This document shows positions 27,149 through 36,100 of a stretch of DNA of 64,000 bases, in pieces. This DNA comes from Octopus vulgaris (Eukaryota): positions 59,148,001 through 59,212,000 of the forward strand of contig OX597828.1 in NCBI GenBank assembly GCA_951406725.2, given 5' to 3'. Made by a program: the position numbers. Each line of letters begins with the position of its first letter. Position 1 is the first letter of the stretch.

Positions 27149-30100
27149 TCTATAATTATATGCATAATTATAATTAGGGTTCAGCAAAATTTGCTTCACC
27201 ACATACTGAAATTTAGAAATAGCAGTTAAATACTATTCTACTACCATAAGATATCTCTGTCTGAGAGATTTTTGTTCCTAACCCTGAAAGGATGAAAGGC
27301 AAAGTCGATCTCGGCAGAATTTGAACTCAGAACGTAAAGATTGACAAAATGCCACTCAGCATTTTTGCCCAACGTGCTAATGATTCTGCCAGCTCACAAC
27401 CTTCTGCAGGACTAATATTAATTATTGTACATCAGTCAGTATTTAAATTCACTGTTCTTTCTTTTATTTATTCTTAAATATCATCTTCTAATGTTATTCT
27501 TTTGTGACTTATTTCATTTCAGTGGTTAATGATGAAAAAACAATCTGCAAGTTTTACAGAGAAGGTCAAAAATGTAAACTTGGATCAAAATGTCCATATA
27601 AACACATAAGAGTACCAGATGGTATGTTTTTACTTACATTATTAGTGTAAGCAGCACAAAGAATAGATAAATGCAAATCTTCAATTTTACTACATATATT
27701 ATGCTGTGCTACTAGGCAATACATTTAATTTTCCCAGTATGTCTAAAAAAAGTCTTTAAGCACTTGGTATCTTCTAGTTATTCTATATATATCTGAGCCT
27801 TTTTAACTTTTTGCACACTGCATTTTCTTTAGAATTGTTTCCCCTAGTACTGCTCTGTTACTATAGGGGAAAAAACTCACACGGTGATATGATGCACTTA
27901 CAGTGTGCTAAAGGTTAATTGTGGGCTTATTATGAACTCTTTGTGAAGGAACTGGGATTTAGTTTTTAAAGTTGATGTTTTTGTACTTTTAGGAAGTGAA
28001 ATTTATCCTTTATACTAACATTTAACTCTGAAATTTCTGTCTCTAAGAATAAAAATCTGATATCATCTTTACAAAGCAATTAATGTAATTAGCTGTTAAC
28101 TCTTTTATCAAGAAGATACTCTACAGAAGTCAGCAGTTATTATGCATAGCTAATCTAACAGGCATGACTTTGTAGTAAGAAGCTTGCTTCCTAACCACAT
28201 GGTTCTGGGTTCAGTCCCACTGCATGGCACCTTGGGAAAGTGACTTTTACTATAACCTTGGGTTAACTAAAGCCTTGTGAGTGGATTTGGTAGACAGAAC
28301 CTGAAAGTAGCTCATTGTATGTGTATATGTGTGTGTTTGTGTGCGTGTGTGTGTGTTTGTGTGTGTGTATGTGTGTCCTATCACCACTGGACAACTGGTG
28401 TTAGTATATTTACATCCCTGTAACTAAGCAGTTCAGCAAAAGAAACTGATAGAATAAGTGTCAGTCTTAAAAGAAACAAAATTACATAAGTACTACTATC
28501 AGTCCGTTTGACTAAAAATTCTTCAAGGATTGTGCCCCAGCATGGCTGCAGTCCAATGATTGAAACAGATAAAATATAACTCATAATAATGACATTAGTA
28601 TTTTTTAGATTATACTTTACAATGCTTTCCACAAAGTGTCCCTTAGAACTAGAGACAAGCTCCAGTCGTAAACCAGTATTTTTTTTTTTTGTTCCTTCTC
28701 AAGCCATGCCTGGCTCATAAGGGCCGGTTTCCCAGTTTCCTTGGCGTATAGCTTCCCCACCTGGACGGGACGCCGGTCCATCGCAGGTGAGCTGCATGAT
28801 GCAGGAGGAAAGAGTGAGAGAAAGTTGTGGCGAAAGAGTCAGCAGAAGTTCGCCATTACCTTCTGCCGGAGCCGCATGGAGCTTAGGTGTTTCACTCATA
28901 AACACACACATTGCCCGGTCTGAGATTCGAACCCACGATCCCTCGACCGCGAGTCTGCTGCTCTAACCACTAGGCCATGTGCCTCCACAAAACCAGTATA
29001 TTTACAATCTATTAAAACAGTTTACGACAATAAAAAACAAAGTTTTTACTGTAAGCATACTTACCATCATGTGTTGCCTCTCTTTTTGGTTTTCATTATT
29101 TTTACCCAGTATATTTTGACATTTTCTATATTTAATTTTCTTCAGATTGCCTCACAGTTGACAGAAGAGAAGTTGTTTGCAAAGATGATAGTTGTTCTGA
29201 ATTTGAACTACCATTGGTTGGTTCTCTAGTTGGGGTAGAAGTTAGCGCTATCATAAATCCTGCTCACTTTTATTTGATTTTACCTTGGGGCAAGGATGCT
29301 ATCAAAGACCTGCATGACATGCCAGGTAAGAGTACACGCATATTAGTTTTGGAGCTGCTATTACTATTTTATGCATCACTCACTTTTAATTATACATGCA
29401 TTTAATCATTCATATATACGTTTAAGTACATGTATAGAAGCACATTTACCTAGACATACTTAAATACTTTTAACTACACAAACAGAAACACGTTCAGCTA
29501 CATATTCATACAAATACAGACAATGACAAGTCCCTTAAACCCCTGGAGGCCGTTGGGGTGCTGCAGCCATGCAGTGCATCTTGGGTGAGAAAGCCTGGTG
29601 GAGCCCATCCCTCACCAGGCTAAACTCATTTCTACAATTGAGTGGACTAGAGCAACATGTGTTTTGCTCAAAAACACTATGGATCGCCTGGTCCAAAGAT
29701 CAAAACCACAATCTTACAGTCATGAATCCAACACCCTAACCACTAAGTGACGTGCCTCCACTAGTGGTACCCATTTCTACAGCTGAGTGGACTGGAGCAA
29801 CGTGAAATGAAGTGTCTTGCTCAAGAACACAATGCATTGCCTGGTCCAGGAATCGAAACCACAATCTTACAGTCATGAATCCAACACCCTAACCACTAAG
29901 TGACACGCCTCCACTAGTGGTACCCATTTCTACAGCTGAGTGGACTGGAGCAACGTGAAATGAAGTGTCTTGCTCAAGAACACAATGCATTGCCTGGTCC
30001 AGGAATCGAAACCACAATCTTACAGTCATGAATCCAACACCCTAACCACTAAGTGACACGCCTCCACTAGTGGTACCCATTTCTACAGCTGAGTGGACTG

Positions 30101-33100: not shown

Positions 33101-36100
33101 ACCACTAAGTGACGTGCCTCCACTAGTGGTACCCATTTCTACAGCTGAGTGGACTGGAGCAACGTGAAATGAAGTGTCTTGCTCAGGAACACAATGCATT
33201 GCCTGGTCCAGGAATCAAAACCACAATCTTACAGTCATGAATCCAACACCCTAACCACTAAGTGACATGCCTCCACTAGTGGTACCCATTTCTACAGCTG
33301 AGTGGACTGGAGCAACGTGAAATGAAGTGTCTTGCTCAGGAACACAATGCATTGCCTGGTCCAGGAATCGAAACCACAATCTTACAGTCATGAATCCAAC
33401 ACCCTAACCACTAAGTGACGTGCCTCCACTAGTGGTACCCATTTCTACAGCTGAGTGGACTGGAGCAACGTGAAATGAAGTGTCTTGCTCAGGAACACAA
33501 TGCATTGCCTGGTCCAGGAATCAAAACCACAATCTTACAGTCATGAATCCAACACCCTAACCACTAAGTGACATGCCTCCACTAGTGGTACCCATTTCTA
33601 CAGCTGAGTGGACTGGAGCAACGTGAAATGAAGTGTCTTGCTCAGGAACACAATGCATTGCCTGGTCCAGGAATCGAAACCACAATCTTACAGTCATGAA
33701 TCCAACACCCTAACCACTAAGTGACACGCCTCCACTAGTGGTACCCATTTCTACAGCTGAGTGGACTGGAGCAACGTGAAATGAAGTGTCTTGCTCAAGA
33801 ACACAATGCATTGCCTGGTCCAGGAATCGAAACCACAATCTTACAGTCATGAATCCAACACCCTAACCACTAAGTGACGTGCCTCCACTAGTGGTACCCA
33901 TTTCTACAGCTGAGTGGACTGGAGCAACGTGAAATGAAGTGTCTTGCTCAGGAACACAATGCATTGCCTGGTCCAGGAATCAAAACCACAATCTTACAGT
34001 CATGAATCCAACACCCTAACCACTAAGTGACGTGCCTCCACTAGTGGTACCCATTTCTACAGCTGAGTGCACTGGAGTAACGTGAAATGAAGTGTCTTGC
34101 TCAGGAACACAATGCATTGCCTGGTCCAGGAATCAAAACCACAATCTTACAGTCATGAATCCAACACCCTAACCACTAAGTGACACGCCTCCACTAGTGG
34201 TACCCATTTCTACAGCTGAGTGCACTGGAGCAACGTGAAATGAAGTGTCTTGCTCAAGAACACAATGCATTGCCTGGTCCAGGAATCGAAACCACCATCT
34301 TACAGTCATGAATCCAACACCCTAACCACTAAGTGACGTGCCTCCACTAGTGGTACCCATTTCTACAGCTGAGTGGACTGGAGCAACGTGAAATGAAGTG
34401 TCTTGCTCAGGAACACAATGCATTGCCTGGTCCAGGAATCAAAACCACAATCTTACAGTCATGAATCCAACACCCTAACCACTAAGTGACACGCCTCCAC
34501 TAGTGGTACCCATTTCTACAGCTGAGTGCACTTGAGCAACGTGAAATGAAGTGTCTTGCTCAAGAACACAATGCATTGCCTGGTCCAGGAATCGAAACCA
34601 CAATCTTACAGTCATGAATCCAACACCCTAACCACTAAGTGACATGCCTCCACTAGTGGTACCCATTTCTACAGCTGAGTGGACTGGAGCAACGTGAAAT
34701 GAAGTGTCTTGCTCAGGAACACAATGCATTGCCTGGTCCAGGAATCAAAACCACAATCTTACGATTGTAAATCCAACTCCCTAAGCACTAAGCACATGCC
34801 TCCACAGAGGCCTTTGCAGATACATACACATATACATACACATAGAAAACAACATATGTTCACCCATATATACTCATAGCTTAACACATTTAGATACACA
34901 CAAATATATGTAGAGAAACACTGTTAACTTGACTGACATGCACATCTTATTACTTAATTGATTATTTCGCAGTGACACACTTCTTTGCTTATATTGGGAT
35001 TTTGAGAATGCTTTTTTTCTATTTATTTTTGCTATGAATTTTATAATTTTCTTTTTGTCCAATAGATTACGAAACCAAGGAGGAAACTTTAGCAGACTTG
35101 CAGAAAGATTTACAGTATGAATTTTTTTCCTTCTTTCTTTTATCTTTTTTTTTTTGAGTTCTTCATATTTTTTCTTACAATGGTTTTAGGATATATTTCA
35201 TAATGTTAATTGTTGCAGATTGTGGTGTTGCCATGCAAGAGGAAATGTCTTTCAAACAATGCTTTCCTTATTAACTATAAGATAGAGAAACTAGTTCAAG
35301 AAGAGATATGTCTTTCTCAGAAGCTTATTACAATCTGCTAGTGGGGCACTAAGAGTACCATACGAGCGAGATCGTTACCAGAGCAACAAGCTGGCCTTTG
35401 TGCCGATGGCACCTTAAGCACACCATTCGAGTGAGATCGTTACCTGCATCGCCTTACTAGCACTTGTGCTGGTGGTACATGAAAAAAAACATTCGAGCAA
35501 GGTTGTTGTCAGTGCCGCTGGACTGGCTTCTGTGCAGGTGGCACATAAAAAGCACCATTTGATCGTGGCTGTTGCCGGTAGCACACAACTGGCCCTCATG
35601 CCGGTGGCATGTAACAGCACCCACTACACTCTTGGAGTGGTTGGCATTAGGAAGGGCATCCAGCTGTAGAAACTCTTCCAGATCAGATTGGAGTCTGGTG
35701 CAACCATCTGGTTCGCCTGACCTCAGTCAAGTCGTCCAACCCATGCTAGCATGGAAAGCAAACATTAAACGATGATGATGATGTGTGTGTATCCTTGTCT
35801 TGACATTATGGGATGGTTGTAACTGAGCATCATCGTCATACAAGTAATATTGTTCAATTCCAGTCTTCCATGAAAAACGAAAAACTTGCCTGGCCAAGAG
35901 TTGGATATAAGCTCTATATTGCAGAAAAGAGCACAATTCATAGAAACTTGCAAAAGATTGGATTGCATTTTAATACTAAAACAGAGATCTTGAACTCCTG
36001 CATACACAACACATAATTCATACTTAGACAATGGACACCTATTCAGCCCACAGCCCCCTTTCATCCAAGGAAAAATTTTGCATGGATACAGATGGAGCAG

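What the first reader, a model, noticed from the sequence alone, without database searches (positions are those of the whole stretch)
29530..34805. 5.2-kb array of ~34 Pol III SINE heads inside an intron of a putative piRNA-pathway gene
Seen: one antisense family B SINE whose 5' ~145 nt (tRNA-like A/B boxes plus core) is amplified head-to-tail with a 153-bp period. The internal units are highly homogeneous, the two end units are diverged, and one probable tail remains. The array lies ~300 bp after one Tudor exon and ~260 bp before a 49-nt exon. Inference: a SINE-to-satellite transition caught in progress. The Tudor pre-mRNA would carry ~34 antisense copies of a SINE head, a potential piRNA/siRNA source or target that could couple SINE silencing to a silencing gene. 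The DNA would also form a TFIIIC/Pol III site cluster with near-nucleosome period.
Basis: partly seen in the sequence, partly recalled or inferred. Interest (0 to 1): 0.75.

Follow-up and report, generated by a model that had tools for sequence, protein, structure and literature searches.

The report
SINE-head tandem array in octopus intron
A 5.2-kb run of 34 near-identical copies of the front part of a short mobile element (SINE) sits inside an intron of an octopus Tudor-domain gene; it is real but looks like an ordinary SINE-derived minisatellite with no demonstrated function.

Summary
TRF finds one array at 29659-34805 (period 153, 33.7 copies, 97% match). Cutting at a fixed motif gives 34 units (29609-34805). 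The 32 internal units differ from their consensus by 0-5 bases.

The unit is the first ~146 nt of a SINE plus a 7-nt junction filler, on the minus strand. The host gene is on the plus strand. It is the ortholog of Octopus bimaculoides LOC106883807, which has three Tudor domains and one CCCH finger. The array fills the intron between exon 29146-29325 and the 49-nt exon 35066-35114.

SINE-derived tandem arrays with a longer terminal unit are already described in squamates and bivalves, including in introns. The Pol III promoter is degraded: every unit has at least 2 A-box mismatches, and only 13 of 34 keep the family-type B box. No tRNA model matches. Nothing here tests small RNAs, chromatin or splicing.

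New detail: the two end units are reciprocal mosaics with breakpoints in the same 19-nt interval, as unequal exchange would leave.

Best reading: a neutral intronic SINE-derived minisatellite, a new member of a known kind, of modest interest.

The parts
29609..34805 (-). Whole tandem array: 34 head-to-tail units of 153 nt. Each unit is SINE positions 1-146 plus a 7-nt junction filler.
   Evidence: TRF; anchor spacing; unit table
29762..34653 (-). 32 internal homogenised units (u02-u33). The central block u05-u26 is the most uniform. Units near both ends keep ancestral states, such as T at unit position 91.
   Evidence: mean distance to consensus: 1.09 for u05-u26, 3.0 for u02-u04, 2.7 for u27-u33
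34654..34805 (-). 5'-most unit (u34), a mosaic. Unit positions 1-44 are diverged (9 differences, 8 substitutions in 43 aligned sites). Positions 45-153 are identical to the array consensus.
   Evidence: (the Fisher test split at position 43: 8 differences in 1-43 against 1 in 44-153, p=1.7e-4)
29609..29761 (-). 3'-most unit (u01), the reciprocal mosaic. Positions 1-63 are array-like; the only difference is a variant shared with 9 internal units. From position 64 on it is diverged (14 substitutions in 75 aligned sites plus an 8-nt deletion). It does not end in the junction filler but runs on into unique sequence.
   Evidence: (Fisher p=1.9e-5)
29530..29608 (-). Non-repeated continuation of u01, the putative SINE 3' part or 'tail'. 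Its lower boundary is uncertain (about 29495-29530). No clean target-site duplication was found.
   Evidence: no second copy in the window, so its SINE origin is unverified
29326..35065 (+). Host intron of 5740 nt, about 90% of it occupied by the array. Donor CAG|GTAAGA; acceptor preceded by a pyrimidine-rich tract.
29146..29325 (+). Upstream exon of 180 nt, encoding the N-terminal part of the third Tudor domain (aa 866-925 of the O. bimaculoides ortholog).
   Evidence: (98% identity, E 1.5e-30); no Pfam hit on its own
35066..35114 (+). 49-nt exon, in frame only if included. It has a weak donor, ACA|GTATGA, matching 5 of 9 consensus positions.
   Evidence: (15 of 17 aa identical to P0001 926-942)
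27523..27621 (+). CCCH zinc-finger exon of the same gene.
   Evidence: (zf-CCCH, E 8.7e-7)
36488..36632 (+). Tudor-core exon.
   Evidence: TUDOR E 8e-4, profile 53-85; 94%
38800..38957 (+). Tudor-core exon.
   Evidence: (TUDOR E 1e-9, profile 82-121)
39331..39387 (+). Penultimate coding exon.
41805..41973 (+). Last coding exon, including the stop codon.
24742..25008 (+). Dispersed full-length relative of the array's SINE: 15-nt target-site duplication, perfect A-box match, (ATTT)n end, and a different 3' module. It is inverted relative to the array.
57927..58145 (+). Second dispersed relative, 5'-degraded, with the same 3' module as the 24742 copy.

Best explanation
This is an intronic SINE-derived minisatellite. 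The first ~146 nt of a SINE (A/B-box head plus conserved core) became tandemly duplicated, joined head-to-tail through a 7-nt filler. The dimer then grew to 34 units by unequal sister-chromatid or homolog exchange and/or replication slippage.

The same process keeps the inner units about 98-99% alike. It cannot reach the outer parts of the two terminal units, which therefore stay about 19% different. The array is antisense to, and rides in, a 5.7-kb intron of a three-Tudor, one-CCCH gene. It is most likely a neutral or slightly deleterious passenger, not a working Pol III, piRNA or chromatin device.

Shown: the structure, orientation, mosaic ends, promoter decay and gene context. Inferred: the founding event, growth by unequal exchange, and neutrality.
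For: Structure.

SINE origin of the unit.

Reciprocal mosaic ends: u34 differs from the consensus only at unit positions 13-44, and u01's private differences lie only at positions >=64. Both transitions therefore fall in positions 45-63, the invariant B-box stretch. Outer-edge divergence is the same at both ends: 8 of 43 = 18.6% and 14 of 75 = 18.7%.

Growth from within: the central block is most uniform, and ancestral states (T91, also seen in u01 and in both dispersed copies) survive only in units near the ends.

Junction filler: ACCACTA is the exact reverse complement of unit positions 17-23. My estimate is about 2% by chance for a 7-mer and about 7% if only 6 nt count as filler. This is compatible with a templated insertion at an end-joining or template-switch junction.

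Decay, not maintenance, of function: A box has 2-3 mismatches in 34 of 34 units. The B-box CpG is lost in most units, so only 13 of 34 keep the family type, and TTTT is created in 19 of 34. CpG observed/expected is 0.23 in the array against 0.34-0.39 around it. Three of the five recurrent polymorphisms lie in CpG contexts. Unit RNA folds no better than shuffles in either orientation (z +1.76 and +0.99).

[quoted passage not shown] Bivalve SINE tandem arrays of 4-15 units also occur in introns, with a first unit truncated at its 3' end and a last unit with a complete tail (PMC11481361, passages).
Against: No read, population or cross-species data were available. Neutrality, copy number and in-situ origin are therefore inferences.

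If both outer edges diverged from one founder at the repeat clock quoted for O. vulgaris (PMC13282606 passages), the array would be about 30 My old. That is a long survival for an unselected array.

A relative-rate comparison gives the 3' edge a 2-3.5 times longer branch than the consensus: 0.12-0.15 against 0.04-0.07, based on only 14 differences. This fits two different parental SINE copies, or an imported array, somewhat better than one founder.

The two mosaic breakpoints coincide, which a single founder plus independent edge effects does not require. I estimate about 20-25% by chance.

None of them is excluded.
Confidence: 0.75

Rival explanations
1. Origin rival A. The array was seeded by one unequal crossover between two neighbouring, independently inserted, ~19%-diverged SINE copies in the same orientation. 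The internal unit is then a chimera: the 5' part comes from the downstream copy and the 3' part from the upstream copy. The 'diverged end units' are simply the two parents.
For: Both mosaic transitions lie in the same 19-nt invariant stretch, positions 45-63, as one crossover would leave. Divergence is equal at both ends, 18.6% and 18.7%. The internal units keep an 8-nt stretch that the dispersed copies have and u01 lacks. u34 keeps a family-like 'ATCGTAAG' where the internal units and u01 have a derived form. The double-insertion route to TE-derived satellites is in print (PMC5932611; title and start of abstract seen in the listing only).
Against: The upstream parent would have to be cut at position ~146 exactly at the head of the downstream one. 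No remainder of it and no target-site duplication is seen beyond the tail. SINE insertions are normally 5'-truncated, not 3'-truncated (established knowledge).
Confidence: 0.3
2. Origin rival B. The 153-nt repeat is a multi-locus satellite family formed elsewhere. It entered this intron by homologous recombination with one old resident SINE, for example integration of a circular multimer or ectopic conversion. The resident SINE now forms the two outer edges.
For: It explains the coincident breakpoints and equal edge divergence as well as rival A does. Squamate sSats exist at many loci with high between-locus homogeneity (PMC10702118 Discussion).
Against: No second array or junction copy occurs in the 64-kb window. 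The variant gradient from the edges to the centre suggests local growth. No genome of this animal could be searched.
Confidence: 0.15
3. The 34 antisense SINE heads in the Tudor pre-mRNA act as a piRNA/siRNA source or target, coupling SINE silencing to a silencing gene. The DNA also acts as a TFIIIC/Pol III cluster with nucleosome-like phasing.
For: The orientation and gene context are confirmed. The gene's Tudor domains are most similar to the extended Tudor domains of TDRD1, TDRKH/Papi, a Drosophila protein deposited as GH18329p, and Drosophila Tudor. If co-transcribed, the sense copy at 24748-24895 could pair with any unit over about 130 bp (-220 kcal/mol against -61 +/- 6 for shuffles). 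That would give a Dicer or ADAR substrate.
Against: Promoter motifs are degraded in all units (A box) or most units (B box), with CpG decay. No tRNA-like or other RNA family signal was found, and no excess RNA structure. Introns that are spliced out are not typical piRNA precursors (established knowledge, recalled). Searches found no cephalopod small-RNA study bearing on SINE arrays. The gene has no assigned orthology to a named piRNA factor.
Confidence: 0.07
4. Assembly artefact. The locus holds a short SINE duplication, and the assembler inflated or mis-resolved the copy number.
For: Near-identical 153-nt units are hard to assemble. 7 of the 32 internal units are identical to the consensus.
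Against: Units carry an ordered, non-periodic pattern of private and shared variants, including a 3-nt and a 1-nt deletion. There is no higher-order periodicity (mean differences at lags 1-8 are 2.1-2.6). The window has no N. The two edges join unique sequence cleanly.
Confidence: 0.07

Closest known systems
SINE-derived satellites (sSats) of squamate reptiles (Vassetzky, Kosushkin and Ryskov 2023, PMC10702118)
   Same: Both are tandem repeats whose unit is a portion of a SINE. Both have a longer terminal unit that runs on toward the SINE terminus. Both show high homogeneity in longer arrays and a unit length in the 150-180 range, and both are attributed to unequal homologous recombination plus concerted evolution (abstract and Discussion read).
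   Different: The host is a cephalopod and the SINE family is unrelated. Here only one locus is known, it is intronic in a gene, and it is 5.2 kb long. The squamate sSats occur at many loci, prefer subtelomeric regions and reach up to about 1000 units. The authors wrote that it was uncertain whether such satellites exist outside squamates.
Tandem-like SINE arrays in bivalves, especially Scapharca broughtonii (PMC11481361)
   Same: Both are mollusc tRNA-related SINEs with conserved core domains in direct tandem arrays, also inside introns. One described type has a first unit with a complete head and truncated 3' tail, then truncated repeats, then a final unit with a complete tail (passages read).
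   Different: The bivalve arrays reported have 2-15 units; this one has 34. In the described bivalve type the inner units are also truncated at the head, whereas here every unit starts at the SINE's first base. No target-site duplication frames this array.
TE-to-satellite conversion by double insertion and unequal exchange (McGurk and Barbash 2018, PMC5932611)
   Same: A tandem TE dimer serves as the substrate for array expansion by unequal exchange. This fits origin rival A.
   Different: That work describes Drosophila TEs. Only the listing (title and start of the abstract) was seen. No evidence here shows that the founding dimer arose by a second insertion.
Minisatellites/VNTRs inside composite retroelements or introns (e.g. 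the SVA VNTR; recalled, not looked up)
   Same: Both are arrays with repeat units of tens to hundreds of bp, derived from a retroelement, intronic, expected to be length-polymorphic, and maintained by unequal exchange or slippage.
   Different: The SVA VNTR is part of a mobile element and is copied with it. This array shows no sign of being mobilised as a whole.

Membership tests
SINE-derived satellite (sSat) | The tandem unit is homologous to a part of a dispersed SINE | tested here: met
   The unit matches two dispersed copies in the window at 83.8% over 148 nt and 90.7% over 97 nt. One of them is a bona fide insertion with a 15-nt target-site duplication. Alignment.
SINE-derived satellite (sSat) | A terminal unit is longer and continues to the SINE terminus | tested here: inconclusive
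   u01 continues into about 80-130 nt of non-repeated sequence. That sequence has no second copy in the window and no target-site duplication, so its SINE origin is unverified.
SINE-derived satellite (sSat) | Several loci in the genome, satellite-like abundance and localisation | not testable with these tools
   No eukaryotic genome collection is on hand. There is only one array in the 64-kb window.
SINE-derived satellite (sSat) | Concerted evolution: inner units homogenised, edges left out | tested here: met
   Internal mean pairwise difference is 2.65 of 153. The outer edges differ by 18.6% and 18.7%, with sharp reciprocal mosaic boundaries.
tRNA-derived SINE | Internal Pol III A and B boxes (consensus recalled: TRGCNNAGTGG, GGTTCGANNCC) | tested here: inconclusive
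   The dispersed copy matches the A box at 0 mismatches and the B box at 1. In the array units the A box has 2-3 mismatches in 34 of 34, and the B box has 1 mismatch in 14 of 34 and 2-4 in 20 of 34.
tRNA-derived SINE | The head is recognisable as a tRNA (cloverleaf or tRNA model) | tested here: not met
   ARAGORN found 0 genes in the window. Rfam found 0 at gathering score. There was no tRNA hit at E<=10 on 24700-25050 or 30150-30700.
tRNA-derived SINE | Target-site duplication and a simple-repeat or A-rich 3' end | tested here: met
   Met for the dispersed copy 24742-25008. Not met for the array-bearing element.
CORE-SINE superfamily | Central ~65-nt CORE domain | not tested
   The resemblance of the unit's second half to the CORE/MIR core is recalled only. 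No reference sequence was available from a tool. Octopus CORE-SINEs are named in the literature (recalled). An O. vulgaris repeat table lists tRNA-CORE SINEs (PMC13282606 passage).
Classical satellite DNA | Very long arrays in heterochromatin (pericentromeric or subtelomeric) | tested here: not met
   The array is 5.2 kb and lies within an intron between coding exons. It is better called a minisatellite or VNTR.
piRNA source locus | 24-31-nt small RNAs with 1U/10A bias map to it | not testable with these tools
   No small-RNA data are available. Literature searches found no cephalopod data set on this.
Germline extended-Tudor (TDRD-type) protein (host gene) | Tudor domains of the extended, SN-like type | tested here: met
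   P0001 scores TUDOR E 9.3e-61 with 3 stretches. The best solved relatives are TDRD1, TDRKH/Papi, GH18329p and Drosophila Tudor (E 5e-14 to 5e-8). Window exons score TUDOR E 1e-9 and 8e-4.
Germline extended-Tudor (TDRD-type) protein (host gene) | Binds methyl-arginine of PIWI proteins, with germline expression | not testable with these tools
   The source names it an 'uncharacterized protein'. No orthology to a named TDRD was established.

The most novel reading that the evidence does not exclude
The array may be a selected self-monitoring device. Nascent transcripts of a germline Tudor gene would display 34 antisense SINE heads. Together with the inverted sense copy 5 kb upstream, these would form long dsRNA, or be hit by sense SINE piRNAs. 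The output of a piRNA-pathway scaffold would then rise or fall with SINE activity. Array length alleles would tune this feedback.
Probability: 0.05. Interest if true: 0.75.

Novelty: new member of a known kind. Interest (0 to 1): 0.3.

Why it matters
If confirmed with reads, this would extend SINE-derived tandem arrays, described so far in squamates and bivalves, to cephalopods. SINEs make up about 12% of the O. vulgaris genome (PMC13282606 passage). Three literature searches found no cephalopod report of this kind.

The locus is a clean small example of how such arrays are born and kept uniform. It shows a single junction with a possibly templated filler, reciprocal mosaic edge units, and a younger centre. 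It offers a likely length-polymorphic marker inside a germline-type gene.

A practical point for annotation: the array makes up about 90% of an intron that precedes a 49-nt, frame-critical exon with a weak donor site. Splicing of that exon is therefore worth checking.

A functional role would be interesting, but nothing here supports one.

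Tried and rejected
- tRNA identity of the head: ARAGORN and three Rfam runs found nothing.
- Higher-order repeat structure: none. Mean differences at lags 1-8 are all 2.1-2.6.
- RNA structure of the unit: not better than shuffles on either strand.
- Target-site duplication around the composite element: only a 17-nt imperfect match in TG/TA-rich low-complexity sequence, 22 nt away from the head. 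Rejected as evidence.
- Homology of the retained 'tail' to the other abundant repeat of the window: only 14-nt words (E about 4), and a MAFFT alignment of about 50% identity beyond one 14-mer. Rejected.
- Relative-rate test to choose between origin models: symmetric at the 5' edge, asymmetric at the 3' edge, too few sites. Undecided.
- Cryptic splice sites: array units offer only weak donor-like sites (at most 6 of 9 consensus positions), acceptor-like AGs with upstream pyrimidine fraction at most 0.73, and no AATAAA or ATTAAA. No strong prediction follows.
- Species and other orthologues: two single-exon protein searches returned only the O. bimaculoides protein. The cluster look-up could not be made because the database was switched off.
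- NCBIfam on the host protein: no family.
- Not done: the spliced gene model was searched exon by exon only. The joined coding sequence was neither built nor searched.
- Not done: no scan of genome contigs, which holds bacteria and archaea only and so is irrelevant.
- Not seen: the supplementary figures of PMC10702118, which show the sSat structures.

Full report
**1. The observation**

Tandem Repeats Finder reports one array at 29659-34805 with period 153, 33.7 copies, 97% matches, no indels and score 9797. This is far above the other 53 rows for the window. An 8-nt anchor occurs 34 times between 29500 and 34900, and 31 of the 33 spacings are exactly 153; the others are 150 and 152.

Cutting at a fixed 7-nt motif gives 34 units from 29609 to 34805. 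The 32 internal units differ from the majority consensus at 0-5 positions, and 7 of the 32 are identical to it. The mean is 1.6 differences to the consensus and 2.65 between pairs, per 153 nt. The two end units are diverged: u01 (29609-29761) at 37 alignment columns, gaps included, and u34 (34654-34805) at 9.

u01 does not end in the junction. It runs on into non-repeated sequence down to about 29530 or a little lower. Whether the assembly has the copy number right cannot be checked without reads. The ordered, non-periodic pattern of private and shared variants argues against a trivial artefact.

**2. What the unit is**

Two dispersed relatives lie in the window on the plus strand: 24748-24895 (83.8% identity over 148 nt) and 57927-58020 (90.7% over 97 nt). 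The first belongs to a complete insertion, about 24742-25008, framed by a 15-nt target-site duplication and ending in (ATTT)n. The unit is therefore the first ~146 nt of a SINE, read on the minus strand.

The last 7 nt of each unit (ACCACTA) match neither the dispersed copies nor u01's continuation. They are a junction filler. That filler is the exact reverse complement of unit positions 17-23. I estimate about 2% by chance for a 7-mer, or about 7% if the first A still belongs to the SINE. With the next four bases it forms a 10-nt palindrome.

The 'tRNA-like' label rests on motifs only:
- Against the recalled A-box consensus, the dispersed copy at 24759 is perfect, but 32 of 34 array units have 2 mismatches and 2 of 34 have 3.
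- Against the recalled B-box consensus, 13 of 34 units keep the family form (1 mismatch). Most of the others have lost the CpG. In 19 of 34 units this spot now reads TTTT, a minimal Pol III terminator.
- ARAGORN finds no tRNA in the window.
- Rfam finds nothing at gathering score, and nothing tRNA-like at E<=10 on a dispersed copy or on 3.6 array units.
- Unit RNA folds no better than shuffled sequence in either orientation (z +1.76 and +0.99).

The second half of the unit reminds me of the CORE/MIR core domain. That is recall, not a test.

The retained 3' continuation differs from the 3' module of the dispersed copies. That module has four copies in the window; the continuation has no second copy. 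Its status as a SINE tail is therefore unverified.

**3. The surroundings**

I scanned stop-to-stop reading frames of the plus strand from 11052 onward (leaving out the array and low-complexity frames), plus one minus-strand frame, one by one against Pfam: 149 and 150 fragments. Four hits are relevant:
- a CCCH zinc finger in 27492-27647 (E 8.7e-7);
- Tudor in 36411-36650 (E 8e-4, profile positions 53-85);
- Tudor in 38740-38958 (E 1e-9, profile positions 82-121);
- an intronless rhodopsin-type receptor frame at 12307-13575.

The exon next to the array (29148-29324 translated) found one protein, Octopus bimaculoides 'uncharacterized protein LOC106883807' (P0001, 1117 aa), at 98% identity and E 1.5e-30. 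A second exon found the same protein at 96%. P0001 has three Tudor stretches (E 9.3e-61) and one CCCH finger.

Mapping P0001 onto the window places only residues 833-1117 there, at 88-95% identity per exon. The animal is therefore an octopus close to, but apparently not, O. bimaculoides. The rest of the gene lies upstream of the window.

Reading the splice sites gives these exons:
- 27523-27621
- 29146-29325
- 35066-35114
- 36488-36632
- 38800-38957
- 39331-39387
- 41805-41973, including the stop codon

The array-bearing intron (29326-35065, 5740 nt) interrupts the third Tudor domain, and about 90% of it is the array. The 49-nt exon is present in the O. bimaculoides model (15 of 17 residues identical). 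Because 49 is not a multiple of 3, it is needed for the frame. Its donor site is weak, ACA|GTATGA, 5 of 9 consensus positions, against 7-8 of 9 for the gene's other five donors.

The spliced model was searched exon by exon only. The joined sequence was not built or searched.

The nearest solved relatives of P0001 are extended Tudor domains of TDRD1, TDRKH/Papi, a Drosophila protein deposited as GH18329p, and Drosophila Tudor (E 5e-14 to 5e-8). 'Putative piRNA-pathway gene' is thus a reasonable guess from domain type, not an orthology.

**4. How the array most likely arose and is kept**

The end units are not uniformly diverged. They are reciprocal mosaics.
- u34, the 5'-most unit in SINE sense, differs from the consensus only at unit positions 13-44 and is identical from 45 to 153. 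The Fisher test, split at position 43, counted 8 differences in 1-43 against 1 in 44-153 (p 1.7e-4).
- u01, the 3'-most unit, is array-like up to position 63. Its one difference there is a variant shared with nine internal units. It is diverged from position 64 on (22 differing columns in 64-146; p 1.9e-5).

Both transitions therefore fall within positions 45-63. This is the B-box stretch, which is invariant in all five aligned sequences apart from the C/T site. The outer parts differ from the consensus by the same amount: 8 of 43 (18.6%) and 14 of 75 (18.7%, plus an 8-nt deletion).

Within the array the centre (u05-u26) is the most uniform, at 1.09 differences to the consensus. Units near both ends are less so (3.0 and 2.7). 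They keep states also seen in u01 and in the dispersed copies, such as T at position 91. No higher-order period is seen.

This is the pattern expected if a founding tandem duplication grew by unequal exchange or slippage. Such exchange overwrites inner sequence repeatedly but can never replace the outer part of a terminal unit.

Three versions of the founding step fit the data and cannot be separated here:
- One SINE was duplicated through an end-joining or template-switch junction (the filler). The edges have diverged ever since.
- One unequal crossover took place in the B-box stretch between two neighbouring, ~19%-different SINE copies. The internal unit is then a chimera.
- A 153-nt satellite formed elsewhere and was imported by recombination with an old resident SINE.

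A relative-rate comparison is symmetric at the 5' edge (branches 0.09-0.11 and 0.08-0.10). At the 3' edge it is asymmetric (0.12-0.15 for u01 against 0.04-0.07 for the consensus). It rests on 8 and 14 differences, so it does not decide the matter. No clean target-site duplication frames the composite.

With the clock quoted for O. vulgaris repeats (Jukes-Cantor 0.09 at 25 My and 0.2 at 56 My; PMC13282606, passages), the internal units' 1.06% distance to their consensus corresponds to about 3 My. Under the one-founder version the 18.6% edge divergence corresponds to about 30 My. That is near or before the O. vulgaris-O. bimaculoides split of 13.3-33.5 My quoted in the same paper. These are my calculations from those figures.

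**5. Function**

Signs of decay dominate:
- The A box is mismatched in all units, and the B-box CpG is lost in most.
- CpG observed/expected is 0.23 in the array against 0.34-0.39 in flanks and window.
- Three of the five recurrent polymorphic sites are in CpG contexts.

This argues against a maintained Pol III/TFIIIC function. It fits a methylated, neutrally drifting sequence.

On the plus strand the units offer only weak splice-like sites and no AATAAA or ATTAAA.

It would lie in the same primary transcript if the upstream intron spans it, and it could pair with any unit over about 130 bp. The predicted energy is -220 kcal/mol, against -61 +/- 6 for 200 shuffles. That makes long intramolecular dsRNA possible, a potential Dicer or ADAR substrate. 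It is an inference that depends on co-transcription.

No small-RNA, chromatin, methylation or RNA-seq data could be consulted. Two literature searches found no cephalopod small-RNA work bearing on SINE arrays. One octopus paper only notes that SINE fragments are common in brain transcripts and lncRNAs, and reports Piwi expression levels (PMC9115989, passages).

I therefore take the array to be a neutral or mildly deleterious passenger (confidence about 0.75).

**6. Comparison with what is known**

'SINE-derived satellites' were described in 56 squamate genomes. [quoted passage not shown] Longer loci are more homogeneous, and unit lengths are discussed in relation to nucleosomes. Their origin is ascribed to unequal homologous recombination followed by concerted evolution. 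The authors left open whether such satellites exist outside squamates (PMC10702118, abstract and Discussion read).

In bivalves, direct tandem arrays of conserved-core, tRNA-related SINEs occur, also in introns. They usually have 2-3 units, and 4-15 in S. broughtonii. One type has a 3'-truncated first unit and a final unit with a complete tail (PMC11481361, passages).

The route from a TE dimer to a satellite by unequal exchange is in print for Drosophila (PMC5932611; title and start of abstract seen in the listing only).

The present array has the defining anatomy of an sSat. It differs in host (a cephalopod), in having a complete SINE head in every unit, in length relative to the bivalve cases (34 units), and in being known from a single intronic locus. 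By size and place it is a minisatellite, not a classical heterochromatic satellite.

Three searches combining octopus or cephalopod with SINE, satellite or tandem-repeat terms returned no report of such arrays in cephalopods. The recent O. vulgaris repeat annotation mentions tandem repeats only as a TRF step (passages). Its supplements and those of the squamate paper were not seen.

**7. Verdict**

The structural interpretation, a SINE head turned into a tandem array, is supported. The functional interpretation is unsupported, and for the Pol III part it is weakened.

Novelty: a new member of a known kind. Interest: about 0.3. The locus is a tidy illustration of array birth and edge effects, and possibly a first cephalopod example, but not a surprise to a specialist.

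The decisive checks are a genome-wide and cross-species search for the junction and the orthologous intron, spanning long reads, gonad small RNAs, and splice-junction counts around the 49-nt exon.

Noticed in passing
window 57052-57278: A near-perfect palindrome with two 113-nt arms, 96% complementary and 1 nt apart. I first saw it as identical peptides on both strands. It lies next to a long (AT)n tract at 57383-57548. It could be a foldback element or a hairpin-forming insertion.
   Followed up: partly
window 8605-8945, 17922-18113, 22345-22542, 56315-56510: A second abundant repeat family carries 2-5 internal tandem sub-repeats of 61-64 nt at four loci (TRF rows). Tandem duplication inside SINE-like elements therefore seems common in this genome, not special to the Tudor intron.
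   Followed up: partly
window 12307-13575 (+): An uninterrupted 423-codon frame matches rhodopsin-family 7TM receptors (PF00001, E 1e-9). It is on the same strand as the Tudor gene and upstream of its exons in the window. It is either a separate intronless gene or one nested in the Tudor gene's large upstream intron.
   Followed up: no
window 35115 (donor of the 49-nt exon): The frame-critical 49-nt exon has the weakest donor of the gene's six donors in the window (5 of 9 consensus positions against 7-8). It follows the 5.7-kb array-filled intron.
   Followed up: partly
window 24748-24895 (+) versus the array: A sense-oriented relative of the SINE lies about 4.7 kb upstream of the array, inverted relative to it. 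The predicted RNA duplex with a unit is -220 kcal/mol over about 130 bp. If both are in one pre-mRNA, this is a possible dsRNA or A-to-I editing substrate.
   Followed up: partly
window 53502-53972 (-), 50525-50629 (+), 49081-49422 (+): Remnants of other mobile elements: a Tc1/mariner-type transposase HTH (PF01498, E 3.6e-13), a piece of a mariner DDE domain (PF01359, E 5e-5), and a borderline GIY-YIG match (E 1.3e-4, exactly at the cut-off) that might belong to a Penelope-like element.
   Followed up: no
window 1-637: The window opens with a (TTC)n microsatellite of about 212 copies, 87% matches.
   Followed up: no
window 28708-28786 (-), 4321-4394 (+): There are two further copies of the 3' module of the dispersed SINE family without a detected head. 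One lies about 360 nt upstream of the exon 29146-29325.
   Followed up: no
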